From positions 1,390-65,389 of the forward strand of contig CAZFMJ010000006.1 of assembly GCA_964520045.1 (NCBI GenBank): 64,000 nucleotides of DNA. The letters run 5' to 3'. Below the pieces are notes generated by a model, which saw nothing but the letters and a program-made list of their open reading frames with translations, did not search any database and was not told the origin of the DNA. Below are positions 8,970 through 58,621 of the stretch, one piece after another. Both the position numbers and the translations under genes were made by a program. The stretch comes from an uncultured Elusimicrobiales bacterium. GTDB taxonomy: Bacteria; Elusimicrobiota; Elusimicrobia; Elusimicrobiales; CAZFMJ01. Every line of letters begins with the position of its first letter. Within the stretch, counting starts at the first letter, position 1.

Positions 8970-9386
8970 TCACTCCCCTATGATTTTGACTAAAACACGT
9001 TTTTTTCTCTGTCCGTCGAATTCACCGTAAAAGATCTGCTCCCACGGTCCGAAATCAAGCCCGCCTTTTGTTATGGCGGTAACGACTTCCCTTCCCATTA
9101 TCGTTCTTTTAAGATGGGCGTCCGCATTGTCTTCGCCGGTAAGATTGTGCCTGTATTTATTCACTCCGTAAGGGGCGAGTTTTTCAAGCCAGCTGAGGAA
9201 ATCCTCATGCAGGCCGGACTCATTGTCGTTTATAAAAACGCTGGATGTGATATGCATGGCGTTTACAAGGCATAGGCCTTCTTTTACCGCGCTTTTGCGC
9301 ACCGCTTCTTCAACTTGCGGGGTTATATTTACTATTCCGTATCTCTCTGGAGTGTTCATCCAGATATAGTCCGTATGCGATTTCAT
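8970..9386 (-). CDS. YjbQ/UPF0047 family protein (secondary thiamine-phosphate synthase-like)
   Basis: [21 protein letters not shown]...[21 protein letters not shown]...[15 protein letters not shown]. Start at MKSH; the start overlaps the upstream stop by 1 nt (TAATG). Confidence 0.85.
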
Positions 9387-10006
9387 TATTCCTCCCGCGC
9401 GAGTATTACGGTTTTGCATTTGCAGAGTTTTTTGAATTTCTCCGCGTCCTGAACGGAGCCCGCGATCGAGCCGTAATGCATGGGGACGGCTATTGCGGGG
9501 TTTATTAAGTCCGCCGCCTGAGCGGCTTCTTCGGCTGTCATTGTATAAGTCCCGCCTATCGGAAGAAGAGCGATGTCGGCTTTAATTGATTTCATTTCAG
9601 GTATAAAGTCGGTGTCTCCGGCGTGATATATTCTTTTTCCTCCGGTCGTTATGATAAATCCGAGATAGCCGTTCGCTTTCGGGTGAAAGTTTTTTGCCGG
9701 ATTATAAGCCGGAACGGTTTCAATGATTATCCCTTTGACCGCGGTTTTTTCACCGGGACTCAGCGCCGTAACGGGATGGGGCAGTTTGTCCGCTATGCAG
9801 GACGGCCCGATTATGACGGTATCTTTTGACGCGATTTTATCTATGTCTTCCGGGGAGCAGTGGTCAAAATGGTCGTGCGTGACGAGAATAATATCAGCTT
9901 GTGGAAGTCCGCTCCCGAGTTTGAACGGGTCTATGTATATTTTTACGCCTTCATCCGCGTCTATCCTGAAAGAGGCGTGTCCCAGCCAGTGTATGTTTTC
10001 AATCAT
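9386..10006 (-). CDS. MBL-fold metal-dependent hydrolase (UPF0173-like)
   Basis: WLGHASFRI...[11 protein letters not shown] metallo-beta-lactamase His motif; about 200 aa. Confidence 0.85.
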
Positions 10007-10073
10007 AAGAACAGTTTATAAAAACAAGCAGGAAATGTGAATTGTCTTTTTTGCCGTAAAAATGTAATAGAAT

Positions 10074-11072
10074 ATGTTCATGACAAATAAAAATAGAACT
10101 TTAGGCGCTTTATTCGGAGTGTGCGTGGGCGACGCTCTCGGCCTTCCCGTGCAGTTTTTAAGCAGGAAGGAGATTGACAGCAACCCCGTTGAGGAAATGA
10201 AAAAAATAGGCAAAATGCCGGCCGGAACATGGTCGGACGACAGCTCCCTTACCTTCTGTCTTGCCGACAGCTTATGCAAAGGATTTAACCCCGAGGATAT
10301 CGCTGATAAATTCCGCAGATGGCTTGACGAGGGATTATGGACCCCTGGCGGGCGGGCGTTTGACGTAGGCAAAACCACAAGGCTGGCGATAGAATGCATA
10401 AAAAAGGGAGTGCCGGCGCTTGAATCCGGCGGAATCGACGAGTCCAACAACGGCAACGGCTCGCTTATGCGCATTATTCCGATGGCCTGCCGCTTTGCCG
10501 GCGCGGAGCAAAAGGAAAGGATTGAAAAAACGCATAAGGCTTCGCGCATAACGCACGGACATCCGCGTTCCCAGATGGCATGCGGTTTTTATGTGGAACT
10601 GGCCGTAAAGCTTATAAAAGGAATGGATTTGCGCAAGGCGTATGAAGAGACAAAGCAGGAGGCGGTTGAAATTTACAGGGAGCATCCCTATAAAGGCGAA
10701 TTGCCTAAATTTTCAAGAATAATGGAGCAGGATATAGCTGGTTTAAGCAGGGGGGAAATAAAATCAACCGGCTATGTGATAGACACGCTTGAGGCTGCGC
10801 TCTGGTGCATGCTGACCACAGGGTCTTATAAGGATGCGGTTCTTGCCGCGGTGAATCTGGGCAATGATTCCGATACTACGGGCGCGGTAACCGGCGGGCT
10901 GGCGGGGATATATTACGGGTTTGAGTCCATTCCAAGGGGCTGGATCGAAAAAATAGCCCTTAAGGACAAGATAAATGATCTGGCCGCGCGTTTAGAAAAG
11001 GCAAATGCCCCGGCTGATGCTGTCTCTTCCGCTTCAGGAAAAACAGGAACGGTAAGCAGGAGGAAAAAATGA
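10074..11072 (+). CDS. ADP-ribosylglycohydrolase family protein
   Basis: GALFGVCVGDALGLPVQF near the N-terminus and GNDSDTTGAVTGGLAGIYYG near the C-terminus. Confidence 0.85.
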   Translation: MFMTNKNRTLGALFGVCVGDALGLPVQFLSRKEIDSNPVEEMKKIGKMPAGTWSDDSSLTFCLADSLCKGFNPEDIADKFRRWLDEGLWTPGGRAFDVGKTTRLAIECIKKGVPALESGGIDESNNGNGSLMRIIPMACRFAGAEQKERIEKTHKASRITHGHPRSQMACGFYVELAVKLIKGMDLRKAYEETKQEAVEIYREHPYKGELPKFSRIMEQDIAGLSRGEIKSTGYVIDTLEAALWCMLTTGSYKDAVLAAVNLGNDSDTTGAVTGGLAGIYYGFESIPRGWIEKIALKDKINDLAARLEKANAPADAVSSASGKTGTVSRRKK

Positions 11073-12061
11073 ATAAAAAATTCTGGCTTAAGAAGATTAA
11101 AGATTTGGTTTTTTTGATAATCGTCGCCTTTGTTTTCATAAAATTCACCACTTACGGGTCCAAGTTCTGGGCCACGCAGACGCCGGTGGTTCTTGAGACG
11201 GACAATTCGTCTGCGCGGACAATTAAAAAACGCGTGCATTTCCTGTCCGAAGAAGTGGGAGACCGCAGTGTTTTTAACCATAAAAACCTTGAGAAAGCCA
11301 AAGATTACATAGCCAAAGAATTTAAAACCTCCGGCTACAGCGTTGAGTTTCAGACGTATAAAGCGGCGGCAAAAGACGCGTCCAATATAATCGCCGTTAA
11401 AAAAGGCCGTCTTGCGCCGGACGAGGTTGTTATAATCGGGGCGCATTACGACACCGAAGGCACGAAAGGGGCCGATGACAATGCCAGCGGAACGGCCTGC
11501 CTGCTTGAACTCGCGGACAGATTTTCAAAATCCCAGCCGGCAAAAACGCTTAAATTTATAGCTTTTGTTAATGAAGAGCCGCCGTTTTTTACAAATGACC
11601 TGATGGGAAGCATGGTTTATGCCGGGCGCGCTAAAAAGGACGGAGAAAATATAAAGGCCGCCATCGTTCTGGAAATGCTGGGGTTTTATTCCCAGAAACC
11701 CTTTTCCCAGCGATATCCGCCGTTCATAGGCCCCTTTTATCCCAACAGGGGAAATTTTGTCGCTATAGTCGGAAACCTCAACTCGCGGGATATCGTCAGT
11801 TCGGCGGGGAATTCATTCAGAAGCAAAAGCACGTTTCCGGTTGAAACCGCGGTTCTTCCTTTCTGGATCCCGGGAGTGGCTTTTTCAGATCATTATTCAT
11901 TCTGGAAAAACGGCTATAAGGCGGTGATGGTTACGGATACCGCGTTTTTCCGCAACAGCAATTACCATAAGGCTTCGGACACTGCGGACACTTTAAACTA
12001 CGACTACATGTCGGAAATAGTAAACGGCCTTGAGTCCGTCATAAAAAACCTCGCGGAGTAG
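11069..12061 (+). CDS. M28 family aminopeptidase, membrane-anchored
   Basis: VIIGAHYDT...GADDNASGTACLLELA...FVNEEPPF zinc-ligand blocks and an N-terminal TM helix. ATGA overlap with the upstream gene. Confidence 0.85.
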   Translation: MNKKFWLKKIKDLVFLIIVAFVFIKFTTYGSKFWATQTPVVLETDNSSARTIKKRVHFLSEEVGDRSVFNHKNLEKAKDYIAKEFKTSGYSVEFQTYKAAAKDASNIIAVKKGRLAPDEVVIIGAHYDTEGTKGADDNASGTACLLELADRFSKSQPAKTLKFIAFVNEEPPFFTNDLMGSMVYAGRAKKDGENIKAAIVLEMLGFYSQKPFSQRYPPFIGPFYPNRGNFVAIVGNLNSRDIVSSAGNSFRSKSTFPVETAVLPFWIPGVAFSDHYSFWKNGYKAVMVTDTAFFRNSNYHKASDTADTLNYDYMSEIVNGLESVIKNLAE

Positions 12062-12091
12062 GTTAACCCCGATACTCCGCAGCGCTTCCTT

Positions 12092-12244
12092 ATGGATGAA
12101 AGAAAAAAATATTACGCGCACTCCGCAAATGCCAAAGGCAAATGGCAGCTGCTGAAAGACCATCTGCTAAACACCGCCATCCCGGCCCGCATCCCCCCGA
12201 TGTTCTTGAAAAATGTTCTGTTGACTGCTATAATTACAGTGTAA
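12092..12244 (+). pseudogene. duplicated 5' fragment of cas3 (first ~33 codons), then unrelated sequence to a stop
   Basis: MDERKKYYAHSANAKGKWQLLKDHLLNTAIPAR versus the cas3 N-terminus MDGIKKYYAHSANAKGEWQLLKDHLQNTAVLAR. About 98 nt align with about 10 mismatches (manual). Confidence 0.85.
12206..12234 (+). promoter_or_regulatory. sigma70-like promoter of the TA cassette (TTGAAA-N17-TATAAT), followed by direct repeats AGTGTAATGG/AGTGTAATTG
   Basis: TTGAAA at 12206-12211 and TATAAT at 12229-12234. The tandem decamers at about 12239-12258 lie between the -10 box and the RBS gggagg and are a candidate RHH operator. Confidence 0.5.
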
Positions 12245-12274
12245 TGGAGTGTAATTGAATGGGAGGCGTATTTT

Positions 12275-12517
12275 ATGTCCAGAATAAGCGTTCAGTGGAC
12301 GGTCAGCCTTCCGCCCGAGCTCTCCAGGAAGGCGTTGTTCCTGGCTAAATGCGAAATTCGTTCCAGGTCTGAGCTTGTGCGCGAGGCCTTGCGGGAGTAT
12401 ATCTCCAGGCAGACAAGGTTTTTTGGACTCAGAAAGAAACTTGCGTCTAATATGAACAGGCGCCGCATAAAGACGCTTAAAGACATTGAGAATATTATAG
12501 ATGACGGCCGCATATAA
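12275..12517 (+). CDS. ribbon-helix-helix (CopG/Arc-type) antitoxin
   Basis: VSLPPELSRKALFLAKCEIRSRSELVREALREYI fits the beta-strand plus two helices of RHH. Overlaps the downstream PIN gene by 17 nt. Confidence 0.75.
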   Translation: MSRISVQWTVSLPPELSRKALFLAKCEIRSRSELVREALREYISRQTRFFGLRKKLASNMNRRRIKTLKDIENIIDDGRI

Positions 12518-12935
12518 AAAACTCAGGGTTGTTTTGGACACTAATGTCCTCATCTCTGCTCTGGGTTTTCTTGGCAGGGAGACCGGCAAAATATGGGATT
12601 TGGCCGAGGAAAGCGGGTATGAGCTGTTTCTGTCCGAGTTTATTCTTGATGAGCTTTTGCGTAATTTAGCTGGAAAAGCGGGATTGTCTGAAAATGACGC
12701 CGCGGAAGTAATTGAACGTGTAAGAGATTTTTCCGTCATTGCAGTTCCAAAATCAAAAGTGTCGGTCATCCGTCAAAAAGACGCAGATAACCGCATCCTT
12801 GAATGCGCTGTCGCCGCTAACGCCGATGTGATAGTGACCGGCAATATGCGCCATATCAGGCCGCTTGGCAGTTTTCGGGGCATCGCGATACTAACTCCGC
12901 GCGAGTTTTTGGACAAGCATTTCCCGGGCATTTAG
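12501..12935 (+). CDS. PIN-domain toxin (putative RNase, TA-system toxin component)
   Basis: LRVVLDTNVLISAL, SEFILDEL, DADNRILECAVAANADVIVTGN: the acidic PIN residues in the usual order. Confidence 0.8.
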   Translation: MTAAYKKLRVVLDTNVLISALGFLGRETGKIWDLAEESGYELFLSEFILDELLRNLAGKAGLSENDAAEVIERVRDFSVIAVPKSKVSVIRQKDADNRILECAVAANADVIVTGNMRHIRPLGSFRGIAILTPREFLDKHFPGI

Positions 12936-12958
12936 CCTGCTTCCCTGGCCGCTCTCCT

Positions 12959-15163
12959 ATGGATGGAATAAAAAAATATTATGCGCACTCTGCAAATGCC
13001 AAAGGCGAATGGCAGCTGCTGAAGGATCATCTGCAAAACACCGCCGTCCTGGCCCGTCAGTTTGCCGAGTCCGCCCGCCCTGGTGATAAGGAATTTTCAG
13101 ATGCCGCTCATGCCGCCGGCCTGCTTCATGATTTAGGAAAATATTCAATCAGATTTCAGCAAAGGCTGAAAGATACTCGTGTTTGTGGTATTGAACATTG
13201 GTTGCCTGGTTCGATGACTTTGTTCGAAAATAACATGCCGTATTCCGCGTTTAGTTCATTTGCCCACCATGTGGGGCTCCTGAATATACGTGATATTAAA
13301 AATGCCATATCAGTCCCCAGTGAATCAATTCCTGAAACCACAGAAGAATTGCTTGAGCGGTTTTTGGCAGAATGCCCTCAGCCGCGTTTAAGTGTTAAAC
13401 TTGGAGTTAATTATAATCCAACACAAAACACCATCCTGACAAGAATTATTTTCAGTTGCCTGGTAGACGCTGATTTCTTGGACACGGAAAGGCATTTTGA
13501 ACCAGAAGAGTCGAAATGCCGTTTGAAAAACAAGGGAACGTTTAAGCCAAAGGATTGGCAGGCATGTTTGGATAAAAAGATAAAAACTATTTCCAAGTTG
13601 GCAAGTTCCACAAATAAAGCGAGGAGTATTGTCTTGGAAGCATGCCTTGGAGCGGCGAATAGGAAATCAGGAGTATTCTCTTTGACAGCTCCGACGGGCA
13701 GTGGTAAAACTTTGTCTAGTTTGGCATTTGCGCTTAAGCATTCGCAATTAAATCCTGCTTTTAGGAGAATAATTGTTGTCTTGCCGTATACAACGATAAT
13801 TGAGCAAACTGCGGCAGAATATCGGCAAATAGTAGGAGATCGAAACCTGCTTGAGCATCACTCCGCCAAAGATTTGGAAAAAGATTCAGAGGATGAGTTG
13901 CGTTATCGGTTCGCATCCGAGAATTGGGATGCGCCAGTTATTATTACCACACAGGTGCAGTTTTTTGAAAGTCTATTTTCCAATAAACCTTCTTCCTGCA
14001 GAAAGCTTCATCAGATTGCTAATAGCGTGATAATTTTCGACGAAATCCAGACGCTTACTGGCTATCTCCTGCGGCCGCTTTTAAATATGGTTAATGAGTT
14101 GTGCTGTGTCATGGGCTGCACTGCGGTTTTGTCTTCCGCAACGCCTAACTGTATCGGTTTGACGGCGAAAAAGCTTGGGATTAAGGACTGGGATCCTAAA
14201 GAAATAATAAATAATCCATCGGCATTGGCAAAAGCTATGCGGCGCGTTAATGTTTTAATGCCGGAGGATTACTCAGCTGCCTCTCCTTTGTCTGATATCG
14301 CCGAAGGGATGGGAAAATATAAACAGGCATTGTGTATTGTAAATCGCAAAGATGACGCGGAGGATATATTTAGGCTCCTTCCTCAGGAAGGAAGATATCA
14401 TCTTTCGACAAGAATGTGCCCTGCCCATCGTGTGAATACCCTTGATAAAATTAAGTCGGCGCTAATTTCCAATAAAACATGCCGGTTGTCCGCCACTCAG
14501 TGTGTTGAGGCGGGGGTAGACATGGATTTCCCGGCTGTGTGGCGCGCCCTTGGTCCGTTGGATTCAATTTTACAAGCGGCAGGGCGTTGCAATCGGGAGG
14601 GGAAAATAGCGCTTTCCAAATCTAATGTAAGAGTATTTATTTCTGAACGTCAACCGCCGCAAGGTTATTATAATATAGCGTCGCAGGTAACGCCTATTTT
14701 TCAGCAGTTTTGCCGTGGCGAGGATATTTTAGACCCCGAGACCATTTCTAAATACTTTACCCTGTTGTTGGATAGGATGCCTATTGATAAGGTTTTTCTT
14801 GACGATGGCAGGGAGGCTAGGGTTGCTGATTTGGAGAGGGACGGTGAATTTGCCGCCATTGCGCGTGCGGTTAGGTTGATAAAAGATGATACTGTTCAGG
14901 TAGTTGTGCCTTATGAGAGAAAAGGCCGCGCGGCGAAGAAATACCTGGAAAATTTTAGTAAAAAGTTTGGTGCGCGGCCGTTGCCGCATAATATACGCAA
15001 AAAACTCGGTCGGATTTCCGTGCAATTCCACAAAAATCAAGTGTCATATTATTGTGCCCATGGCGTTATGAAGGAATTTAAAAATCAAACTTATGTGTGG
15101 ATTGGCCATTATGATAAAGATCTTGGTTGTGTCATTCCAAAACCGGAGGATAGTATCGTATGA
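12959..15163 (+). CDS. cas3: CRISPR-associated helicase/nuclease Cas3 (HD plus SF2 helicase)
   Basis: N-terminal HD domain (YAHS...LHDLGK), Walker A APTGSGKT, DEAD-like box FDEIQ. First gene of the I-C operon. Confidence 0.95.
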   Translation: MDGIKKYYAHSANAKGEWQLLKDHLQNTAVLARQFAESARPGDKEFSDAAHAAGLLHDLGKYSIRFQQRLKDTRVCGIEHWLPGSMTLFENNMPYSAFSSFAHHVGLLNIRDIKNAISVPSESIPETTEELLERFLAECPQPRLSVKLGVNYNPTQNTILTRIIFSCLVDADFLDTERHFEPEESKCRLKNKGTFKPKDWQACLDKKIKTISKLASSTNKARSIVLEACLGAANRKSGVFSLTAPTGSGKTLSSLAFALKHSQLNPAFRRIIVVLPYTTIIEQTAAEYRQIVGDRNLLEHHSAKDLEKDSEDELRYRFASENWDAPVIITTQVQFFESLFSNKPSSCRKLHQIANSVIIFDEIQTLTGYLLRPLLNMVNELCCVMGCTAVLSSATPNCIGLTAKKLGIKDWDPKEIINNPSALAKAMRRVNVLMPEDYSAASPLSDIAEGMGKYKQALCIVNRKDDAEDIFRLLPQEGRYHLSTRMCPAHRVNTLDKIKSALISNKTCRLSATQCVEAGVDMDFPAVWRALGPLDSILQAAGRCNREGKIALSKSNVRVFISERQPPQGYYNIASQVTPIFQQFCRGEDILDPETISKYFTLLLDRMPIDKVFLDDGREARVADLERDGEFAAIARAVRLIKDDTVQVVVPYERKGRAAKKYLENFSKKFGARPLPHNIRKKLGRISVQFHKNQVSYYCAHGVMKEFKNQTYVWIGHYDKDLGCVIPKPEDSIV

Positions 15164-15900
15164 ATGAAAACAACTCAGTTTTTCTCAAAGTCTGGGGTGA
15201 GTATGCTTGTTTTACGAGGCCTGAACTCAAAGTTGAGCGTGTCAGCTATGCAGTTCCAACGCCGTCCGCCGCTCGTGGATTTCTGGAAGCTATACTATTT
15301 AAACCGGAATTTCGCTGGCGGATTGAGGAAATAAGTGTGTTGAAAGAAATTCAATTTATAAATCTCCGGCGTAACGAGGTTCAAGGGGTTATCTCAAGCA
15401 GGAATGTAGAATCCGCCATGCGCGGCACAAAGGAATTGTCCCCGCTTATGGCTGATGACACGGATAATGAGGGAGAAGGCCGGACACAACGCCAAACCAT
15501 AGCTTTGCGGGATGTGTCGTATATTATCAAAGCAAGTCCCCGACCTTTTACCGCTTCAGGCACAGTAGATTTAGTTAGGAAATTTAAAGAGCAATTTGAG
15601 CGACGTGTCCAGAAAGGGCAGTGCTTCCAGCAGCCATATTTCGGTTGCAGGGAGTTTGTGGCTAATTTTTTGCTCCCTACCGGTAATGAAAAACCTATTG
15701 CTGTTTCAAGAGAACTTGGCTGGATGCTTTATGATATTTTTGACTTAAACGCACAGCCGGTCCCGATTTCTAACGCAGACGTACTTGAAAAACATAGACA
15801 GCTTTCGCTTTTTGAGGCTAAACTTGAAAACGGCGTAGTTAAGGTGCCGGATTGGAATTCAGACACGGTCAGACATGCCGCTGTTCAGGAGGCAAAATGA
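15160..15900 (+). CDS. cas5: Cas5d (type I-C pre-crRNA endoribonuclease subunit)
   Basis: VFLKVWGEYACFTRPELKVERVSYAVPTPSAARGFLEAILFKPEFRW is the Cas5d signature. ATGA overlaps on both sides. Confidence 0.95.
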   Translation: MNENNSVFLKVWGEYACFTRPELKVERVSYAVPTPSAARGFLEAILFKPEFRWRIEEISVLKEIQFINLRRNEVQGVISSRNVESAMRGTKELSPLMADDTDNEGEGRTQRQTIALRDVSYIIKASPRPFTASGTVDLVRKFKEQFERRVQKGQCFQQPYFGCREFVANFLLPTGNEKPIAVSRELGWMLYDIFDLNAQPVPISNADVLEKHRQLSLFEAKLENGVVKVPDWNSDTVRHAAVQEAK

Positions 15901-17657
15901 TACTTCAAAGACTGGTAGAATACGCGGAGAGGAATAAGCTTGGTGTGGACCAGACCTATTCCGATAAAAAAGTTTACTGGCAAGTGGAACTTGACTCCGT
16001 AGGTAATTTTGTCGGAGTAGTGCCGAGAGGTATAGAGGAAAGGATTATTGGGGGGCAGAGTAGAACGAAACATGTGGGCGAAGATATTTGTGCGCCATAC
16101 ACACCCTCTAATCTCATGAATGGTGGTAAAATAGCCCATTTTATTATTGATTCTGCAGAAAGGATACTATTTTGGCATGAACAGAATATTGATGGGAAAA
16201 AAATTAAAAAATTAAAAATTCAACATCAATATTACTGGATGCTGATAGAAGAATGTTGGAAAACCGCGATTGAGAATAAAAGACAATTTAATGCGCTTGT
16301 TTCTGCGCAGAAAATTATCGCTGACTTAATTGACGCTCTTAAACAACGAGGGGCCAAACCCAGCCAAAATATTGTTTTCGCGATAGATGGAATCCTGCTG
16401 GCGGAATTGCCTGAAGCAAAAAAGTATTGGGGTGAGCATTTCCGTAAATTTACGTGTTCTGGAAAAGCGGGTGCTTCTTATCTGGATTTATCTTCTGGGA
16501 AGGTAATCGTAAATCCAAAAAATAGTCATGGAAAAATCAAACGTGTGCCTGGAGGTAATCAATCCGGGACATCATTTATTGCCAATGATAAAAATGCGTT
16601 TAAGTCTTTCGGACTGGAGGATGCCTTAAATGCTCCGGTTTCTTCTGAGAATGAGGCAAAATATCGAGAAGCCCTCAATGCTTTGATCCAAAAAGGAGAA
16701 AGGATTCCACCTGAAGCGGTAGCCTGTTTCTGGACGAGAAAAGATACGCAATGCGATCCGTGGTCAACAATAAAAGAACCGAATGAGGAGGATGTGCGGT
16801 CACTGCTGGCCTCTCCTTTGTCTGGTGATAGACATGCCGCTGATATCCAAGAGGATGAATTCTATTCTCTTATTTTAAGCGGCGTCGGCGGCCGGATTAT
16901 GGTGCGAGACTGGATGGAAAGCACTGTGGGGAAAACAAAGGAATCCCTTAAAAAATGGTTTGCGGACATAACAATCATACAGCCGGATGGTTTGGCCGTA
17001 AAATCAAATCATAAGCTTTTCGCTCTGCTTGGCGCGTTGATTAGGGAAAAATTTGATGAATTACCGCCCCAACTTCCGGTGCAGTTGATTCAAGCAGCGT
17101 TAAATAGTAGGCCGCTGCCTATTATACTACTCAGCCTTGCCATAAAAAAGGTGATGATGTCTGTTTACATATCTAAAGATGATGATGTTGATAAATTTGG
17201 AAAGGAAATGCGTCGGACGGCGATTATACGTTTATGTCTTCTCCGTTCGCAATCAAATCAGGAGGTGAATGGTAAAATGCAGGAAAAACTTGACAATGAA
17301 CAAAAAGACCCGGCATATTTGTGCGGGCGGCTGTTGGCAATGCTGGATAGAGTGCAGTATCTTGCGCTTGGCGATGTTGGAGCTGGTGTTATTGAGCGAA
17401 TGTATGGTGCAGCAAGCACTACACCAGCACTTGTCTACGGACGTATTTTTAGAAATGCTCAAGCGCACTTGAGTAAACTGTCAAAAGAAAAGCCCGGCGC
17501 GGCCGTGAATATGGAGAAAGACTTGGAGGAAGTTACAGGCCATCTTAAAGTATGGCCGAAAACCTTAGACCTTGAGGGCCAGGCACGCTTTGCTCTAGGG
17601 TTTTATCATCAGAAAGCTGCGTATAGGGCTAGAAGTATTGAAAATAGGACGAGATAA
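15897..17657 (+). CDS. cas8c: Cas8c/Csd1 large subunit (type I-C)
   Basis: Csd1-like N-terminus MILQRLVEYAERN, about 586 aa, positioned between cas5d and cas7. Start at ATG 15897, overlapping the cas5 stop. Confidence 0.9.
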   Translation: MILQRLVEYAERNKLGVDQTYSDKKVYWQVELDSVGNFVGVVPRGIEERIIGGQSRTKHVGEDICAPYTPSNLMNGGKIAHFIIDSAERILFWHEQNIDGKKIKKLKIQHQYYWMLIEECWKTAIENKRQFNALVSAQKIIADLIDALKQRGAKPSQNIVFAIDGILLAELPEAKKYWGEHFRKFTCSGKAGASYLDLSSGKVIVNPKNSHGKIKRVPGGNQSGTSFIANDKNAFKSFGLEDALNAPVSSENEAKYREALNALIQKGERIPPEAVACFWTRKDTQCDPWSTIKEPNEEDVRSLLASPLSGDRHAADIQEDEFYSLILSGVGGRIMVRDWMESTVGKTKESLKKWFADITIIQPDGLAVKSNHKLFALLGALIREKFDELPPQLPVQLIQAALNSRPLPIILLSLAIKKVMMSVYISKDDDVDKFGKEMRRTAIIRLCLLRSQSNQEVNGKMQEKLDNEQKDPAYLCGRLLAMLDRVQYLALGDVGAGVIERMYGAASTTPALVYGRIFRNAQAHLSKLSKEKPGAAVNMEKDLEEVTGHLKVWPKTLDLEGQARFALGFYHQKAAYRARSIENRTR

Positions 17658-17668
17658 AGGAGAATAAA

Positions 17669-18544
17669 ATGACCGTTATAAAAAATCGTTACGACTTTGT
17701 TTATCTGTTTGATTGCCTTGACGGCAATCCCAACGGAGATCCTGATGCCGCAAATGCTCCACGTCTTGACCCCCAAACCTTACAGGGGATAGTTTCCGAT
17801 GTTTGCATTAAGCGCAAAGTGCGTAATTATGTGCAAATGCGCGGCCAGCCCATTTTTATACAGCACCACGGCATATTAAACAGCGAGATAGATAAAGCTG
17901 AACCAAGAAATGCGGAGCGAAATCGTGAAGAACGTAATCAGGCGGCGAAGTGGATGTGCGGAAATTTTTATGATGTCCGGGCATTCGGGGCGGTGATGAG
18001 CACTGGTTCAAATGCGGGACAGGTCAGAGGACCTATTCAGTTTACCTTTTCCCGCTCCATTGATCCGGTTGTGGCGTTGGACTTATCAATAACACGGGTC
18101 GCAATAACAAAAGTGGAGGATAAGGATAAAAAGGAAACGGAAATGGGCCGCAAAAACCTTATCCCTTACGGTCTTTACCGTTGCCATGGTTTTATAAATG
18201 CGAACTTGGCTCAGGAGCCTAATGGTACAGGATTTTCGGAAGAAGACCTTTCTCTTTTTTGGGAATCCTTGAAAATGATGTTTGATCATGATAGATCTGC
18301 TTCAAGAGGGACAATGTCGCCTCAAATGCTTACGGTGTTTAAACATATAGGAACTGATACTGATGAAAAACAGCGGTCTACCCAGGCAAAACTTGGGTGT
18401 GCCCCTGCACATAAACTGTTTGAGCTTATTAAAATTGAAAAAAACAAGGAAATCCCTCGCAAATACTTGGATTATAATGTCACCATGCCGGAAGCTGGAG
18501 TATTGACGGATTTTCCTGGTGTTGAAGTTATGCGCTTGATATAA
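17669..18544 (+). CDS. cas7: Cas7/Csd2 backbone subunit (type I-C)
   Basis: NRYDFVYLFDCLDGNPNGDPDAANAPR is the Csd2 signature. Confidence 0.95.
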   Translation: MTVIKNRYDFVYLFDCLDGNPNGDPDAANAPRLDPQTLQGIVSDVCIKRKVRNYVQMRGQPIFIQHHGILNSEIDKAEPRNAERNREERNQAAKWMCGNFYDVRAFGAVMSTGSNAGQVRGPIQFTFSRSIDPVVALDLSITRVAITKVEDKDKKETEMGRKNLIPYGLYRCHGFINANLAQEPNGTGFSEEDLSLFWESLKMMFDHDRSASRGTMSPQMLTVFKHIGTDTDEKQRSTQAKLGCAPAHKLFELIKIEKNKEIPRKYLDYNVTMPEAGVLTDFPGVEVMRLI

Positions 18545-18556
18545 ACGGGGTATCGA

Positions 18557-19177
18557 TTGGAACAAATTCTTCTTTCTGCTGTTAACCAGTATCTTTTTTG
18601 CCCAAGGAGATGCGGGTTGATTCACGTGGACGGCGTGTTTGCGGATAACGCCTACACGCTGGAGGGGAGTTTTTTGCATGGCAGGGCGGATACGCCAGGA
18701 GTGGAGAACAGGCCCGGCGTGAGAATTGTCCGGGCTCTGCCTCTTTATTCCAGAAAACTGGGGTTGAGCGGCAAGGCTGACATTGTGGAGTTTCATAAAC
18801 AGCAGGGCCATGCAGAAACGCCTCTGCCGGTTGATTACAAACGCGGGCCGCGCAGGAAATGGGAGAACGACGATGCCCAGCTCTGCGCGCAAGCCCTGTG
18901 CCTTGAGGAAATGCTGAATGCGGAGGTGCCGAAGGGGGCAATATTCCACGCCGCATCAAAACGGCGGAGAGAGGTGATATTTGACGTGGCGTTGCGTGAA
19001 ACCACGCTGAAAGCGATAGGCGATGTGCGTTCCATGCTTAAAACCGGCAAAGTTCCGCCGCCGATTCCAAGTCCACGTTGTGAAGGATGTTCGCTTAAAA
19101 AAATCTGCATACCCGAAATAGTTTCCGCGCCGGAAAAAGTTGCAAATTATAATAACAGTGTTTTTGACGGAGGATAG
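18557..19177 (+). CDS. cas4: Cas4 (RecB-like PD-(D/E)xK nuclease with Fe-S Cys cluster)
   Basis: N-terminal YLFCPRRC plus C-terminal CEGCSLKKIC cysteines; GKADIVEF nuclease core. TTG start. Confidence 0.9.
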   Translation: MEQILLSAVNQYLFCPRRCGLIHVDGVFADNAYTLEGSFLHGRADTPGVENRPGVRIVRALPLYSRKLGLSGKADIVEFHKQQGHAETPLPVDYKRGPRRKWENDDAQLCAQALCLEEMLNAEVPKGAIFHAASKRRREVIFDVALRETTLKAIGDVRSMLKTGKVPPPIPSPRCEGCSLKKICIPEIVSAPEKVANYNNSVFDGG

Positions 19178-19178
19178 C

Positions 19179-19922
19179 ATGAATTTCCAAAACCTGGTTA
19201 ATGTTATAACCGAAACGCAGAAAAATCTGCAGGGGCGGGCTTTGCGCAGTGTCGACCATTTTTTGACCGTCCGCAACTGGCTGATAGGTTGTTACATTGT
19301 GGAATATGAGCAAAAGGGAAACGACCGCGCGCAATATGGAGAGCATCTGCTTGAAAAACTGTCTGCCGCGCTTTGCGGGGAAAAAATGCGGGGGATGTCT
19401 TTCAGAAGTCTTAAGCTTTTTAGACAGTTTTACTGCGTGTATCCTCATATTGGGCAATCAGTGATTGCCCAATTCAAGGCAGCGGATATCAGCCTTCCGG
19501 CGCCAATTGGGCAATCGCTGTCTGCCCAATTGAGTGCCAATCTCCTGTCGGGCGGAAGAAATCTTGTCCGGTTAAGACAACCGTCGGGGGACTGTGGCAC
19601 AAAACCCGAATTATTGCTGTGCCGCCTAAGATTTACTCATTTTGCCAGATTGCTGGCTATAGACGAACCGGTTCAACGTTCATTTTATGAAGTGGAAACT
19701 ATCAAAGGCAATTGGAGTGTGCGTCAATTGAAGCGTCAGATAGAAAGCCTTCTTTATGAGCGGACCGGCCTTTCAAAAAACAAGACGTCCCTTCTTGCCA
19801 AAGTTCATAATCAAAAAGACGTTCCCATGCCGGAGGATATCATTAAAGACCCTTATGTTCTGGAATTTACCGGCTTGCAGGAACGTTCTGAATATAGCGA
19901 AAATGATTTAGAAACTGCTTGA
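19179..19922 (+). CDS. YhcG/DUF1016 N-terminal-domain protein lacking the C-terminal PDDEXK nuclease domain
   Basis: NWLIGCYIVEYEQKG..RAQYGEHLLEKLS, FTHFARLL, SFYEVETIKGNWSVRQLKRQI, KDPYVLEFTGL...SENDLETA then a stop, at the point where full-length YhcG proteins begin the nuclease core. RBS ggagga. Confidence 0.7.
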   Translation: MNFQNLVNVITETQKNLQGRALRSVDHFLTVRNWLIGCYIVEYEQKGNDRAQYGEHLLEKLSAALCGEKMRGMSFRSLKLFRQFYCVYPHIGQSVIAQFKAADISLPAPIGQSLSAQLSANLLSGGRNLVRLRQPSGDCGTKPELLLCRLRFTHFARLLAIDEPVQRSFYEVETIKGNWSVRQLKRQIESLLYERTGLSKNKTSLLAKVHNQKDVPMPEDIIKDPYVLEFTGLQERSEYSENDLETA

Positions 19923-19944: not shown

Positions 19945-20979
19945 ATGGACGCCGTAAGACAAAATACCCTATATGTAATGACGCAGGGCGCATACCTGCA
20001 CCGCGACCACTTGACGGTCAAGGTCGAAATTGAAAAAGAGACCCGGCTAAGCGTGCCCATTCACCATCTGGAATCTGTTTCTATTTTCGGGAATGTTATG
20101 GTGTCTCCCGGCGTTATGCGGTTATGCGCTGAAAACGGCGCGGCAATTACTTTTATGAGCGAGACAGGCAGGCTTATTGCCAGAGTTGACGCTCCGCAGT
20201 CAGGCAACGTTTTGTTAAGGCGCGAGCAATTCCGCAAAGCTGATAAGCCGGAAGAGGCGTTAAAAATTTCCATCCGTATAATAGCCGGAAAACTGCAAAA
20301 TACCCGTTGTGTGCTTATGCGGACGGCGCGGCAGGTGGAAGACAGCGTGGATATATCGGTTTTAGATAAATCTGCCGGAGATATCGGCCATATAATCAAA
20401 AGACTTGAATCCGCGAAATCTATTGATGAAGCGCGTGGATACGAAGGCGAAGGCGCGCAGATTTATTTCGGAGTTTTCAATAATCTTATGAAACAGCAGA
20501 GGGATGATTTCAGAATAACAAACAGAAACCGCCGGCCTCCGCTGGATCCCGCCAACGCCCTTCTTTCTTTTTCCTATGCCTTGCTTCTGCATGACTGCGT
20601 TTCAGCGCTTACAGCGGCCGGGTTGGATCCGAATGTGGGATTTCTGCATGCGGACAGGCCGGGGCGTCCGTCGCTGGCGCTGGATTTAATGGAGGAGTTC
20701 CGGCCTATTATCGCCGACAGGCATGTGCTGTCTATGATAAACAGGAAGGAAGTCGATAAAGATTGTTTTGCTAAACGCGAAGGCGGAGCTGTGGAAATGA
20801 GCGATGCCGCCCGAAAAAAGGTGGTTTCCGCATATCAACAGCGCAAACAGGAGGAAGTCACGCATCCATTGCTTGAACAGAAAATGACGGTAGGAATACT
20901 GCCTTTCTGCCAGGCGCGGTTATTGGCCCGCTATATCAGGGGAGACATAGCTGAATATCCGCCGTGCGTGCTGAAATGA
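19945..20979 (+). CDS. cas1: Cas1 integrase (type I-C)
   Basis: About 344 aa with GYEGEGAQIYF, NALLSFSYALL and FLHADRPGRPSLALDLMEEFRP blocks. Confidence 0.95.
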   Translation: MDAVRQNTLYVMTQGAYLHRDHLTVKVEIEKETRLSVPIHHLESVSIFGNVMVSPGVMRLCAENGAAITFMSETGRLIARVDAPQSGNVLLRREQFRKADKPEEALKISIRIIAGKLQNTRCVLMRTARQVEDSVDISVLDKSAGDIGHIIKRLESAKSIDEARGYEGEGAQIYFGVFNNLMKQQRDDFRITNRNRRPPLDPANALLSFSYALLLHDCVSALTAAGLDPNVGFLHADRPGRPSLALDLMEEFRPIIADRHVLSMINRKEVDKDCFAKREGGAVEMSDAARKKVVSAYQQRKQEEVTHPLLEQKMTVGILPFCQARLLARYIRGDIAEYPPCVLK

Positions 20980-21266
20980 TTATTGTTGTAGGATACGATG
21001 TGAATACTGAAACGGCAAAAGGCAGACGCAGACTGCGGCGCGTGGCTCTTGCCTGTAAAGATTACGGCCAGCGGGTGCAGAAGTCTGTTTTTGAGTGCAG
21101 GGTGGGCGGCAATGAATGGGTAAAATTCAAAACCCGGCTTCTTGCTGAAATAGAGGAAAAAGAAGACAGCCTGCGCTTTTATTTTATAGATGAAGCCGCG
21201 CAAAGGCGCACTGAGCATTACGGTCTTGGCAGGCCGGTGGATTTGGACGGCCCATTGATTGCGTGA
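20976..21266 (+). CDS. cas2: Cas2
   Basis: MIIVVGYDVNTETAKGRRRLRRVALACKDYGQRVQKSVFEC...SLRFY. ATGA overlap with cas1. Confidence 0.9.
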   Translation: MIIVVGYDVNTETAKGRRRLRRVALACKDYGQRVQKSVFECRVGGNEWVKFKTRLLAEIEEKEDSLRFYFIDEAAQRRTEHYGLGRPVDLDGPLIA

Positions 21267-21454
21267 TAAAGCCTCCGCCAACCGGAAGCGGGCGCGGTTT
21301 GTGCTGGATTTGGCGGAACTTAAAAAAGACATGAAAAACAAAGATATTTATGGAATGTGTATGGGCGAATGGCTAAGGGTATTTGATTATTTCTATTGCG
21401 TTGGCGATTTTGGGTCAAATTTGTTTTATAGTAGCAAGATATTTTGAGTATGCT

Positions 21455-22204
21455 GTTTCTCCTCTCCGAAAGGGGAGGAGTGGATTGAAACTTATGATGG
21501 TTTAGACTATCTTAAGCCTCGGTTGAGTTTCTCCTCTCCGAAAGGGGAGGAGTGGATTGAAACGTTGAACCATACAAAAGTAAACGACTGAACAAAGGTT
21601 TCTCCTCTCCGAAAGGGGAGGAGTGGATTGAAACAATTAATTCCTGTTCCATAAAGAAATCATACAAAGTTTCTCCTCTCCGAAAGGGGAGGAGTGGATT
21701 GAAACCTCAATCTTCCTGTTCAGTGTGCTACTGGCGTATGTTTCTCCTCTCCGAAAGGGGAGGAGTGGATTGAAACTAAACAATCAATATTTGTATAAAC
21801 TTTACGACCGTTTCTCCTCTCCGAAAGGGGAGGAGTGGATTGAAACATATCGACAGAATACTTGTGTCGCAGGCGGCCGGAACGTTTCTCCTCTCCGAAA
21901 GGGGAGGAGTGGATTGAAACATATACGGAGCCGAAGATAATGCGACGTTTATGAGTTTCTCCTCTCCGAAAGGGGAGGAGTGGATTGAAACATATTGTTT
22001 CATCCTGAAGTGCTTTCGTTGATTTTGTTTCTCCTCTCCGAAAGGGGAGGAGTGGATTGAAACCGCAGACTTTCCTATAAGCTGGGAGTTGTTGAGGTTT
22101 CTCCTCTCCGAAAGGGGAGGAGTGGATTGAAACTGTGAAATTGCGTAGTCGGTATCTGGTATTAATTGTTTCTCCTCTCCGAGAGGGGGGGAGTGGATTG
22201 AAAC
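21455..22204 (+). CRISPR. CRISPR array, 11 repeats of 37 nt and 10 spacers of 33-37 nt; leader on the cas2 side
   Basis: Repeat GTTTCTCCTCTCCGAAAGGGGAGGAGTGGATTGAAAC starts at 21455, 21527, 21598, 21669, 21740, 21810, 21884, 21955, 22027, 22097 and 22168. The last repeat is degenerate (gagaggggggg). The GTGGATTGAAAC 3' end is I-C-like. Confidence 0.97.
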
Positions 22205-58294: not shown

Positions 58295-58320
58295 TTTGTT
58301 TCCTAGGGCTAATAAAAGAA

Positions 58321-58548
58321 ATGGGCAGTATAAGATTTGCCAGCGAACGCGGGTCCCAGCGGCCGTGTGCTGGGAAACCTATGACCTATAAAAGAAATGG
58401 GCAGTATAGGATTTGCCAGCGAATGCGGGTCCCCGCTGCCGTGTGCTGGGAAACCTATGACCTATAAAAGAAATGGGCAGTATAGGATTTGCCAGCGAAT
58501 GCGGGTCCCCGCTGCCGTGTGCTGGGAAACCTATGACCTATAAAAGAA
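58321..58548 (-). repeat. three tandem 76-bp units derived from the tRNA-Val 3' part (T-arm plus acceptor 3' strand), each with a 36-nt insert in the T-loop
   Basis: Period 76 (atgggcag at 58321, 58397, 58473, and 58549 in the tRNA itself). Units 2 and 3 look identical; unit 1 has 4 substitutions. Confidence 0.9.
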
Positions 58549-58549
58549 A

Positions 58550-58621
58550 TGGGCAGTATAGGATTTGAACCTATGACCCTTCGCGTGTGAGGCGAATGCT
58601 CTTCCGCTGAGCTAACTGCCC
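58550..58621 (-). tRNA. tRNA-Val (anticodon CAC)
   Basis: Reverse complement reads GGGCAGT TAGCTCAGCGGAAGAGC ATTCGC-CTCACAC-GCGAA GGGTC ATAGGTTCAAATCCTAT ACTGCCC A, a full cloverleaf. Confidence 0.85.

What the first reader, a model, noticed from the sequence alone, without database searches (positions are those of the whole stretch)
12062..13063. RHH/PIN toxin-antitoxin cassette sits between two diverged copies of the cas3 5' end and abuts cas3
Seen in sequence:
- The ~98 nt starting at ATG 12092 align with the real cas3 start at 12959, with about 10 mismatches by manual alignment. The peptides are MDERKKYYAHSANAKGKWQLLKDHLLNTAIPAR and MDGIKKYYAHSANAKGEWQLLKDHLQNTAVLAR.
- Between the two copies lie a good promoter (TTGAAA-N17-TATAAT), tandem AGTGTAATKG decamers, an RHH antitoxin gene and a PIN toxin gene.
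- Only 23 nt without an obvious promoter or SD separate the PIN stop from the cas3 ATG.

Inference:
- The TA module entered or recombined at the cas3 start, leaving a ~0.87 kb direct duplication.
- cas3, and possibly the whole I-C operon, may now be read from the autoregulated TA promoter.
- This would couple interference-nuclease expression to TA state and/or make the cas locus addictive, in the same spirit as TA-type safeguards reported for other CRISPR loci.
- The ~10% divergence of the two copies argues against a recent simple target-site duplication and for recombination between two cas3 alleles.
Basis: partly seen in the sequence, partly recalled or inferred. Interest (0 to 1): 0.72.

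Follow-up and report, generated by a model that had tools for sequence, protein, structure and literature searches.

The report
Toxin-antitoxin cassette inserted at cas3 start
A small, self-contained toxin-antitoxin gene pair has been inserted at the very start of the cas3 gene of a CRISPR immune system, leaving a decayed second copy of the cas3 start; this probably puts cas3 behind the cassette's promoter, and related CRISPR loci carry similar scars with other guest genes.

Summary
Positions 12083-12189 and 12950-13056 form a 107-nt direct repeat (88% identity, blastn E 2e-34) covering -9 to +98 of a type I-C cas3. Between the copies lies an intact RHH/PIN (VapBC-like, PIN_3) cassette with an 11/12 sigma-70 promoter and a palindrome/tandem operator. 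Seven independent metagenome contigs are 100% identical, so it is not an assembly artefact. The closest related cassette (L028, PIN 73% identical) sits after purA, away from any cas gene, and shares the -10 box and operator. The TA is therefore a portable promoter-to-stop module that landed in cas3. The left copy is a decaying fragment (orf50). The closest cas3 relatives carry no TA. A relative (L029) has two stacked cas3 5' fragments, each followed by a different guest gene, one an ORF6N gene (PADLOC PDC-S05). The closest relative (L022) keeps an ORF6N remnant directly upstream of cas3. The cas3 5' end thus looks like a recurrent landing site for defence-associated guest genes. Read-through from the TA promoter into cas3 is plausible: no terminator, no better promoter, gaps of 23 nt or less through cas2. 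It is untested. TA modules next to CRISPR-Cas are already known, so this is a new variant of a known kind.

The parts
11069..12061 (+). M28 peptidase gene, left neighbour of the cas locus. It overlaps the ADP-ribosylglycohydrolase gene (10074-11072) by 4 nt.
   Evidence: PF04389 E 2e-27; PF03747 E 2e-81
12053..12081 (+). Stem-loop GCGGAGTA-N13-TACTCCGC between the M28 stop and the left cas3 copy. No T-run follows it.
   Evidence: RNA fold of 12040-12100: -16.9 kcal/mol, z -2.25; sequence
12083..12189 (+). Left copy of the 107-nt direct repeat: cas3 -9 to +98, a decaying 5' fragment.
   Evidence: the repeat finder D1, 88% identity; blastn E 2e-34; alignment A1
12092..12244 (+). orf50: 33 Cas3-like codons fused to 17 unrelated codons. 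Its stop codon lies inside the TA operator. It is probably a pseudogene remnant.
   Evidence: ORF list; no Pfam or NCBIfam hit; it ends before the HD motif (alignment A4); L31P at a position where relatives have L
12190..12949 (+). Unique inserted segment of 760 nt: the RHH-PIN cassette from promoter to stop, plus 14 nt.
   Evidence: Similarity to the L028 cassette is visible from about 12197 (a short shared CCGAYG just upstream of the -35 box) and ends at the PIN stop (alignment A2)
12206..12234 (+). TA promoter: TTGAAA-N17-TATAAT with a TG extension.
   Evidence: 11/12 matches, the best + strand site between 9800 and 21500; L028 has TTGAAG-N17-TATAAT at the same place
12233..12257 (+). Predicted operator: palindrome ATTACAGTGTAAT overlapping the -10 box, within the tandem decamers AGTGTAATGG and AGTGTAATTG.
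   Evidence: Read; conserved in L028 as ATTACAGTGTAATTGAATGTAATG
12275..12517 (+). RHH (CopG/VapB-like) antitoxin gene, 80 aa, with its own GGGAGG SD.
   Evidence: PF01402 at 23.8 bits (cut-off 20.5) and VapB_antitoxin; weak PDB matches to RHH antitoxins and CopG regulators
12501..12935 (+). PIN_3 toxin gene, 144 aa, overlapping the RHH gene by 17 nt.
   Evidence: PF13470 E 1.5e-17 and TIGR00305; AF2 model at pLDDT 87; Foldseek VapC matches at TM 0.6-0.65; D13, E51 and D96 conserved in 98-100% of 120 homologues
12865..12892 (+). Weak promoter-like site inside the PIN 3' end: TTGGCA-16-GATACT. It is the only candidate for a cas3-specific promoter.
   Evidence: 9/12 matches
12936..12958 (+). 23-nt spacer between the PIN stop and the cas3 ATG, with no terminator-like site.
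   Evidence: fold no more stable than shuffles
12950..13056 (+). Right copy of the 107-nt repeat: the 5' end of the intact cas3.
12959..15163 (+). Intact type I-C cas3 (HD plus helicase), 734 aa.
   Evidence: cas3_core, cas3_HD, Cas3-like_C_2; full-length homologues at 75-40% identity
15160..21266 (+). Rest of the I-C operon: cas5c, cas8c, cas7, cas4, a truncated DUF1016 guest gene (19140-19922), cas1, cas2. No intergenic gap exceeds 23 nt.
21455..22204 (+). CRISPR array: 11 repeats of 37 nt and 10 spacers.
   Evidence: weak CRISPR-DR9 matches

Best explanation
An autonomous type II RHH/PIN (VapBC-like, PIN_3/TIGR00305) toxin-antitoxin cassette was inserted at the 5' end of the type I-C cas3 gene of an Elusimicrobia bacterium. 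The cassette is about 760 nt and carries its own promoter and operator.

How it arose (inferred). The result has the anatomy of a one-sided, homology-anchored recombination, either a Campbell-type single crossover or homology-facilitated illegitimate recombination with cas3 as the anchor. The segment from -9 to +98 of cas3 is present twice. The left copy is a dead 33-codon fragment (orf50). The right copy heads the intact gene.

Wider pattern (shown for a few loci). In this I-C clade the position at or just upstream of the cas3 start is a recurrent slot for small defence-associated guest genes. It holds the TA here and ORF6N/PDC-S05 in relatives. In some loci cas3 5' fragments are left behind as scars.

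Consequence (inferred, not shown). The TA promoter is now the strongest recognisable promoter in front of cas3, 725 nt upstream, with no terminator in between. cas3 and probably the tightly packed cas5-cas2 string are therefore likely co-transcribed with RHH-PIN. They would then fall under the antitoxin's autoregulation. The TA itself most likely acts as a selfish stabiliser of the locus and/or an abortive-infection back-up.
For: Repeat and anatomy.

Not an artefact: seven contigs from five ENA and two JGI assemblies are 100% identical in nucleotides across the M28, orf50, TA and cas3 junctions.

Cassette autonomy: in L028 the closest homologue (PIN 73% identical) follows purA. It has the same -35/-10 spacing and the same operator, and nothing cas3-like lies in the 134 nt downstream. 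Similarity to the window cassette is visible from about 7 nt inside the window junction and stops at the PIN stop.

Intact TA:
- PIN fold: pLDDT 87, Foldseek VapC hits.
- D13, E51 and D96 conserved in 98-100% of 120 homologues.
- RHH domain present; the two genes overlap by 17 nt.

Relatives lack the TA: L022, L023-25, L030, L031.

Recurrent slot:
- L029 has two tandem cas3 5' fragments of different alleles (105 nt of them 88% identical). Each has the same leader and each ends in an ATGA overlap with a different cargo gene. One cargo is ORF6N, which matches PADLOC PDC-S05 at E 5e-45.
- L022 keeps a truncated ORF6N remnant directly upstream of cas3.
- The P0242 contig reads ORF6N, 44-aa cas3 fragment, ORF6N.
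- Cas3 N-termini are mosaic. P0011 is 42% identical overall but 77% in residues 1-35. P0002 is 75% overall but 52% in residues 1-35.

Operon reading:
- No terminator between PIN and cas3.
- The TA promoter is the best + strand site between 9800 and 21500.
- All gaps from RHH to cas2 are 23 nt or less.
Against: - No relative with an 'empty' M28-cas3 junction was found. Synteny upstream of cas3 is not conserved in any relative, so the insertion is inferred from anatomy and not from a before/after pair.
- No transcription data exist. Sigma-70 consensus scanning is only a guide in Elusimicrobia. A weak promoter-like site lies in the PIN 3' end (12865-12892). Read-through from the M28 operon is also possible.
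- The 12% divergence of the copies is equally compatible with an old in-situ duplication and with two alleles, so the recombination route is not established.
- Junction positions differ between loci (about codons 33, 44, 48 and 59), so there is no fixed attachment site.
- The fourth PIN acidic position is Asn (N115; N in 84% of homologues, D in 15%), and toxicity is untested.
- The 'recurrent slot' rests on four loci. Many short Cas3 N-terminal ORFs in databases could be frameshifts or decayed loci.
Confidence: 0.6

Rival explanations
1. Old in-situ event. The cassette inserted once, with a local duplication created by break repair or template switching, and the left copy has since decayed as a pseudogene. 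No second cas3 allele was involved.
For: - The left copy shares lineage-specific states with the window's own cas3 (QLLKDHL, NTA, GGCCCG) and is closer to it (88%) than to the other alleles aligned.
- By my reading of alignment A3, the left copy carries more derived changes (K17, I30, P31, GAC), as expected of a relaxed copy.
- No better-matching allele exists among 5.8 billion proteins.
Against: - Five synonymous differences in 33 codons imply a long time, yet all seven population contigs are identical and no related genome shares the insertion.
- The TA, its promoter and its operator are perfectly intact.
- The mosaic N-termini of Cas3 in the clade show that allele exchange at this end does happen.
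Confidence: 0.4
2. cas3 keeps its own expression, and the TA is merely a neighbour: a selfish or defence-island passenger with no regulatory coupling.
For: - A weak promoter-like site lies 67 nt upstream of the cas3 ATG (12865-12892, 9/12).
- Before the insertion cas3 sat 30 nt behind M28, also with no visible promoter, so this organism may use signals the scan cannot see.
- The same cassette lives happily away from cas genes (L028).
Against: There is no terminator after PIN. The gap is 23 nt. The TA promoter is far stronger by consensus than any other + strand site between 9800 and 21500. Some read-through is therefore hard to avoid.
Confidence: 0.3
3. The cas3 5' fragment is a functional leader or upstream ORF that drives or tunes expression of the guest genes, rather than a dead scar.
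For: In L029 both cas3-fragment ORFs keep the cas3 leader and end in an ATGA stop/start overlap with the cargo gene. That is the layout of translational coupling, and it occurs twice with different cargo.
Against: - In the window, orf50 stops 31 nt before the RHH start.
- RHH has its own promoter and GGGAGG SD.
- The orf50 tail reads through the promoter.
- Non-synonymous and synonymous changes are 6:5, and L31P hits a conserved Leu.
Confidence: 0.1
4. Assembly chimera of two strains, one with and one without the cassette or with different cas3 alleles.
For: The source is a metagenome-assembled genome. Contig L005 has 125 unmatched nt at one end.
Against: Seven contigs from different samples and assemblers span the junctions with 100% identity: M28/orf50 (L001, L002, L004, L005, L026, L027), orf50/TA (L001, L002, L004, L005, L027) and PIN/cas3 (L001-L005).
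Confidence: 0.02

Closest known systems
VapBC-type type II toxin-antitoxin modules (RHH or AbrB antitoxin plus PIN RNase), e.g. M. tuberculosis VapBC, Rickettsia felis VapBC2, Shigella VapC
   Same: Antitoxin-first bicistron with overlapping genes. RHH DNA-binding antitoxin. PIN fold with a conserved D/E/D triad. Promoter overlapped by palindromic and tandem repeats, as in autoregulated TA operons.
   Different: It belongs to the PIN_3/TIGR00305 branch, which has no sequence-detectable solved structure. The fourth acidic position is mostly Asn. Toxicity, target and autoregulation are untested.
TA modules embedded in or next to CRISPR-Cas loci (defence-island association; the HicAB-Cas13a 'CCTA' system, PMC13448076; coupling of immunity and suicide, PMC3506569)
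   Same: A type II TA lies directly upstream of, and co-oriented with, the effector nuclease gene. The literature already states that TAs are frequently adjacent to cas loci and that the interplay of type II TAs with Cas is poorly understood.
   Different: Here the system is type I-C and RHH/PIN rather than Cas13a and HicAB. There is no evidence of protein-protein or crRNA interplay. The insertion left a duplicated cas3 5' end and places cas3 behind the TA promoter.
CreTA / CreR (CRISPR-repeat-like RNAs that make cells addicted to Cascade or autoregulate cas promoters; PMC10097628, PMC12737573)
   Same: The idea that a toxin module inside a cas locus could safeguard it, and that cas expression is wired to a small regulator.
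   Different: No CRISPR-repeat-like element lies near cas3. The best match is 21/37, inside the ADP-ribosylglycohydrolase gene, and is at background level. The toxin and antitoxin here are proteins, and the same cassette works outside cas loci (L028).
Defence genes embedded in other defence operons (PADLOC 'PDC' candidates such as PDC-S05 ORF6N/RhuM-like and PDC-S02 DUF1016)
   Same: Relatives carry ORF6N/PDC-S05 in the slot upstream of cas3. The window carries DUF1016/PDC-S02 between cas4 and cas1. One PDC-S05 representative conferred phage resistance experimentally (PMC12881386).
   Different: The RHH and PIN proteins match no PADLOC model. Embedding in I-C cas operons with duplicated cas3 5' ends did not turn up in the four literature searches run here, none of which targeted that point.
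Campbell-type (single-crossover) integration and homology-facilitated illegitimate recombination
   Same: The outcome is the same: a truncated 5' copy, the insert, then a full-length copy of the target gene, with the copies differing if donor and recipient alleles differ.
   Different: No circular intermediate, integrase or donor allele was identified. Junction positions vary between loci.

Membership tests
Type II TA, VapBC-like (RHH antitoxin / PIN toxin) | Two small adjacent co-oriented genes, antitoxin first, overlapping or nearly so | tested here: met
   RHH 12275-12517 and PIN 12501-12935 overlap by 17 nt
Type II TA, VapBC-like (RHH antitoxin / PIN toxin) | Toxin has a PIN fold with conserved acidic active-site residues | tested here: met
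   PF13470 E 1.5e-17. AF2 model at pLDDT 87 and Foldseek VapC hits at TM 0.6-0.65. D13, E51 and D96 conserved in 98-100% of 120 homologues. The fourth position is N115 (N 84%, D 15% of homologues).
Type II TA, VapBC-like (RHH antitoxin / PIN toxin) | Antitoxin has a DNA-binding domain (RHH) | tested here: met
   PF01402 at 23.8 bits against a 20.5-bit cut-off; VapB_antitoxin below its cut-off; weak PDB hits to RHH antitoxins and CopG regulators
Type II TA, VapBC-like (RHH antitoxin / PIN toxin) | Own promoter overlapped by repeat operators (autoregulation) | tested here: inconclusive
   The promoter scores 11/12, and the palindrome plus tandem repeats at 12233-12257 are conserved in L028. Binding and repression were not testable.
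Type II TA, VapBC-like (RHH antitoxin / PIN toxin) | Toxin is growth-inhibiting and neutralised by the antitoxin | not testable with these tools
   Needs expression assays
Type I-C CRISPR-Cas | cas3, cas5c, cas8c (Csd1), cas7, cas4, cas1, cas2 plus an array | tested here: met
   Pfam and NCBIfam hits including cas1_DVULG at E 1e-143; array of 11 repeats
CreTA / CreR (CRISPR-regulated RNA modules) | Degenerate CRISPR repeats flanking a spacer-like guide near the cas promoter | tested here: not met
   The best repeat-like match in 9000-13200 is 21/37, equal to the window background. No spacer matches the window.
Transposon / IS insertion with target-site duplication | Short identical TSD, terminal inverted repeats, transposase | tested here: not met
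   The repeat is 107 nt and 12% diverged. No inverted repeats sit at 12190 or 12949. The insert encodes only RHH and PIN.
Integron gene cassette | attC recombination site after the cargo ORF | tested here: not met
   Only 14 nt lie between the PIN stop and the repeat. That region does not fold better than shuffles.
Pro-CRISPR PIN-like accessory factor (PcrIIC1) | PIN-like protein encoded in a cas operon that binds and boosts the effector | not testable with these tools
   The top Foldseek hit is 8wmm_G at TM 0.62, no better than VapC toxins. The family also occurs without cas genes (L028).
PADLOC defence-embedded candidates (PDC) | Match to a PDC model | tested here: not met
   RHH and PIN have no PADLOC hit. 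The guest genes do match: ORF6N of L029 to PDC-S05 (E 5e-45) and window 19140-19922 to PDC-S02 (E 2e-63).

The most novel reading that the evidence does not exclude
The 5' end of cas3 in this type I-C clade serves as a homology 'landing pad'. Units of [cas3 leader and 5' fragment plus one guest gene] would move between I-C loci by recombination with the resident cas3 start. They would stack upstream of cas3, as in L029, and be expressed from duplicated cas3 leaders or from their own promoter. This would be a recombinase-free cassette system that loads accessory defence genes (TA, ORF6N/PDC-S05) onto CRISPR-Cas operons and rewires cas3 expression.
Probability: 0.2. Interest if true: 0.7.

Novelty: new variant of a known kind. 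Interest (0 to 1): 0.45.

Why it matters
TA modules next to CRISPR-Cas loci are well known as an association, but how they get there and whether they are wired into cas expression is mostly unknown.

This locus gives an unusually clean anatomy. A portable promoter-to-stop TA cassette has been dropped onto the cas3 start. A diverged cas3 5' duplicate records the recombination route. The interference nuclease is left 23 nt behind the toxin gene with no other obvious promoter.

Together with the stacked cas3 fragments and ORF6N guest genes in relatives, it suggests a testable general route by which defence operons acquire embedded accessory genes. It also offers a simple system for asking whether TA autoregulation gates CRISPR interference.

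Tried and rejected
- CreTA/CreR-like element: no CRISPR-repeat-like sequence near cas3 above background, and no self-targeting spacer.
- Known RNA families: Rfam found only the CRISPR repeats between 9500 and 23000.
- Transposon TSD or integron cassette: no terminal inverted repeats, transposase or attC.
- Empty-site relatives: scans of genome contigs and metagenome contigs with Cas3 found only 33-39% relatives. Closer relatives from the protein search (75-52%) sit in different genomic neighbourhoods. Exact look-ups of M28 and PIN gave only identical contigs.
- A donor allele for the left copy: the search with orf50 found none closer than the window's own cas3. It did reveal the fragments P0242 and P0243.
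- Phage or plasmid carriage of cas3 5' fragments: no hits in INPHARED, PLSDB or IMG/VR.
- 'No SD before cas3' as evidence: rejected, because most genes here lack an SD.
- The PcrIIC1 top fold hit as evidence for a pro-CRISPR role: rejected as a generic PIN-fold similarity.
- Counting short Cas3 N-terminal ORFs in the 1.84-billion representative library: 101 of the best 150 hits are 150 aa or shorter, and 69 of those have 10 aa or more of non-Cas3 tail. This is suggestive only.

Full report
**Observation**

The window carries a complete type I-C CRISPR-Cas locus on the + strand:
- cas3 12959-15163
- cas5c 15160-15900
- cas8c 15852-17657
- cas7 17669-18544
- cas4 18557-19177
- cas1 19945-20979
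- cas2 20964-21266
- an array of 11 repeats of 37 nt at 21455-22204

Directly upstream, the repeat finder reports one long direct repeat: 12083-12189 versus 12950-13056, 107 nt, 88% identical, spaced 867 nt. blastn gives E 2e-34, and there is no further copy in the 64 kb. The repeat runs from 9 nt upstream of the cas3 ATG to codon 33.

The left copy opens a 50-codon ORF (12092-12244). It has 33 Cas3-like codons followed by 17 unrelated ones. The 33 codons differ from cas3 at 11 positions, 6 non-synonymous and 5 synonymous.

Between the copies lie:
- a sigma-70-like promoter, TTGAAA-N17-TATAAT at 12206-12234, 11/12 matches with a TG extension
- the palindrome ATTACAGTGTAAT (12233-12245), inside the tandem decamers AGTGTAATGG and AGTGTAATTG (12238-12257)
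- an 80-aa RHH gene (12275-12517; PF01402 above its cut-off)
- a 144-aa PIN_3 gene (12501-12935; PF13470 E 1.5e-17; TIGR00305) that overlaps the RHH gene by 17 nt

The PIN stop and the cas3 ATG are 23 nt apart. The only corrections are that 107 nt are duplicated, not 0.87 kb, and that the absence of an SD is uninformative because 32 of 46 long ORFs in this window lack one.

**Not an artefact**

Exact-protein look-ups found seven contigs from five ENA and two JGI groundwater assemblies. Together they span M28/orf50, orf50/TA and PIN/cas3. All aligned parts are 100% identical to the window in nucleotides. The source is an Elusimicrobia MAG.

**What the cassette is**

- The PIN protein has about 1,600 homologues. 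In the best 120, D13, E51 and D96 are conserved in 98-100% of sequences, followed by a T-G-N/D motif.
- An AlphaFold model built on 53 homologues has pLDDT 87. It matches VapC toxins in the PDB at TM 0.6-0.65.
- The top hit, the Cas9-associated PIN-like factor PcrIIC1 (8wmm_G, TM 0.62), is no better than the VapC hits. I read it as generic PIN-fold similarity.
- The closest cassette (L028, PIN 73% identical, from the same groundwater project) lies downstream of purA in a higher-GC organism, with nothing cas3-like after it.
- The L028 alignment shows TTGAAG-N17-TATAAT followed by ATTACAGTGTAATTGAATGTAATG. That is the same promoter geometry and operator. Similarity to the window cassette is visible from about 7 nt inside the left junction (12190) and ends at the PIN stop.

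The TA is therefore a self-contained promoter-to-stop module that occurs independently of cas genes. This supports 'insertion into cas3' rather than an ancestral TA-cas3 unit.

**Relatives of cas3**

- Genome and metagenome scans gave only 33-39% relatives without PIN or RHH.
- The protein search found closer ones: P0002 75% (Elusimicrobia, L022), P0003 71% (L023-25), P0004 67%, P0005 54% (L031) and P0006 52% (L030).
- None has a TA or M28 upstream, so no 'empty site' is available.
- The two window copies share lineage-specific residues (QLLKDHL, NTA) that no relative has. P0002 and P0003 even carry a 7-residue insertion there.
- The left copy thus came from this same gene lineage, either a very close allele or the gene itself.
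- Comparison with outgroup sequences in alignment A3 suggests more derived changes in the left copy, including L31P at a conserved Leu. That fits a relaxed pseudogene. The comparison is my own reading of the alignment.
- Whether the 12% divergence reflects time or two alleles cannot be decided.

**A wider pattern**

Searching with orf50 found two other short Cas3 N-terminal ORFs.

L029 (JGI 3300005235) contains two tandem cas3 5' fragments of different alleles, a short form like the window's and a long form like P0002's.
- They share 105 nt at 88% identity and a leader that is 96-100% identical.
- Each fragment ORF ends in an ATGA overlap with a different downstream gene.
- The first cargo is an ORF6N protein (PF10543 E 8e-28; PADLOC PDC-S05 E 5e-45). 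The second is unknown.

The P0242 contig reads ORF6N, 44-aa cas3 fragment, ORF6N (no DNA was available).

In L022, the closest relative, the 120-aa ORF directly upstream of cas3 is a truncated C-terminal remnant of the same ORF6N protein.

Junctions fall at about codons 33, 44, 48 and 59, all before the HD motif. There is thus no fixed attachment site.

Cas3 N-termini are mosaic across the clade. P0011 is 42% identical overall but 77% in residues 1-35. P0002 is 75% overall but 52% there. This indicates recombination at this end of the gene.

A second slot, between cas4 and cas1, also holds variable guest genes:
- a truncated DUF1016/PDC-S02 gene in the window
- AAA_14/DUF4143 in L022
- small unknown ORFs in L030 and L031

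A profile search of 1.84 billion representatives returned mostly short ORFs among the best 150. Of these, 101 are 150 aa or shorter, and 69 of those have 10 or more residues of non-Cas3 tail. Some tails recur, one family is seen on contigs up to 41 kb, and one Smithella ORF holds two tandem copies. This is only suggestive, because frameshifts, decayed loci and clustering bias cannot be excluded.

**Mechanism**

*Shown:* the anatomy is a truncated 5' copy, an autonomous insert, then an intact gene.

*Inferred:* this is the product expected from a homology-anchored, one-sided recombination. That could be a single crossover of a circle carrying cas3 5' homology, or homology-facilitated illegitimate recombination anchored in cas3. 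It is not transposition: the repeat is 107 nt and diverged, there are no terminal inverted repeats, and there is no transposase or attC.

*Functional consequence, inferred:*
- Between 9800 and 21500 the TA promoter is the best + strand sigma-70 match.
- No terminator-like site lies between it and cas3.
- From RHH to cas2 no intergenic gap exceeds 23 nt.
- Co-transcription of cas3, and probably of the operon, with RHH-PIN under the antitoxin's autoregulation is therefore likely.
- It remains unproven. A weak site inside PIN (12865-12892, 9/12) and read-through from the M28 operon, past a T-less hairpin at 12053-12081, remain possible.

Addiction or abortive-infection roles are extrapolations from general TA biology.

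**Comparison with what is known**

- The literature already states that TAs are frequently adjacent to CRISPR-Cas loci and that the interplay of type II TAs with Cas is poorly understood. A HicAB-Cas13a integrated system was recently dissected (PMC13448076).
- CreTA and CreR are RNA-based and need CRISPR-repeat-like elements (PMC12737573). None is present here.
- One PDC-S05 representative confers phage resistance (PMC12881386).
- The present case is a new variant. It combines a VapBC-like cassette on a type I-C cas3, a preserved recombination scar, and a probable promoter take-over. Its relatives point to a recurrent guest-gene slot.

**Verdict**

The insertion and the non-TSD nature are supported. 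Promoter capture is plausible. The two-allele origin and the addiction role are unresolved.
- Interest is moderate (0.45).
- The most novel reading not excluded is a recombinase-free cassette system that uses the cas3 5' end as a landing pad. I put it at about 0.2 probability.

Noticed in passing
window 19140-19922 (+): A guest gene sits between cas4 and cas1. It has a DUF1016_N domain (PF17761 E 4e-28; PADLOC PDC-S02 E 2e-63) but only the first ~26 positions of the YhcG PDDEXK nuclease domain, so it looks C-terminally truncated. Relatives hold other genes in the same slot: AAA_14/DUF4143 in L022, and small unknown ORFs in L030 and L031.
   Followed up: partly
L029 364-431, 480-547, 1529-1596 and 1525-1760: A 68-nt motif (…GTGTCGCGGTGATGTGTTAAAATGTTTCTATCCC…) occurs three times upstream of the cas3 fragments. 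The leader of the second fragment folds into a very stable long hairpin (-97 kcal/mol, z -5.3). It could be a MITE-like insert or a structured cas3 leader.
   Followed up: partly
L005 1-125: The first 125 nt of this JGI contig match nothing in the window, and the match to the window starts at 11934 inside the M28 gene. It is either an assembly chimera or a strain variant with a rearrangement in M28.
   Followed up: partly
Cas3 proteins P0001-P0015, residues 1-75: The Cas3 N-terminus is mosaic across the clade. There is a short form and a long form with a 7-residue insertion, and their distribution does not follow overall identity (P0011: 42% overall, 77% in residues 1-35).
   Followed up: partly
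proteins P0249/P0392-P0395, P0258, P0306/P0317/P0329, P0268/P0277: Stand-alone short Cas3 N-terminal ORFs recur in public data. A 67-aa form is seen on 8 or more contigs up to 41 kb. A Smithella ORF holds two tandem N-terminal copies. Several representatives share identical non-Cas3 tails, for example GDKWIF(T/M)L(T/M)ETRVRS. Their genomic context could not be fetched.
   Followed up: partly
window 19449-19474 and 19506-19531: Two copies of a perfect-looking palindrome, ATTGGGCAATC…GATTGCCCAAT, lie 57 nt apart inside the DUF1016 guest gene.
   Followed up: no
window 58312-58567: A tandem repeat of a 76-nt unit, 3.4 copies, 97% identical (TRF score 484). Its nature is unknown.
   Followed up: no
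window 22966-25140 (-): A single 724-aa ORF combines PurN (residues 2-196) and full-length PurH (212-724), an apparent purN-purH gene fusion.
   Followed up: no
window 22168-22204: The last CRISPR repeat is degenerate (2 substitutions in the stem), which marks the trailer end. The leader is therefore on the cas2 side (21267-21454).
   Followed up: no
L023 1690-1790: Upstream of the P0003 cas3 there is a tandem ~60-nt repeat (…GCGTAAT(C/T)TGCGAATAGAGGTTTTAGCGCATTTTGCGAT…) and a 31-aa ORF that overlaps the cas3 start. No cas3 fragment or guest gene is present there.
   Followed up: no
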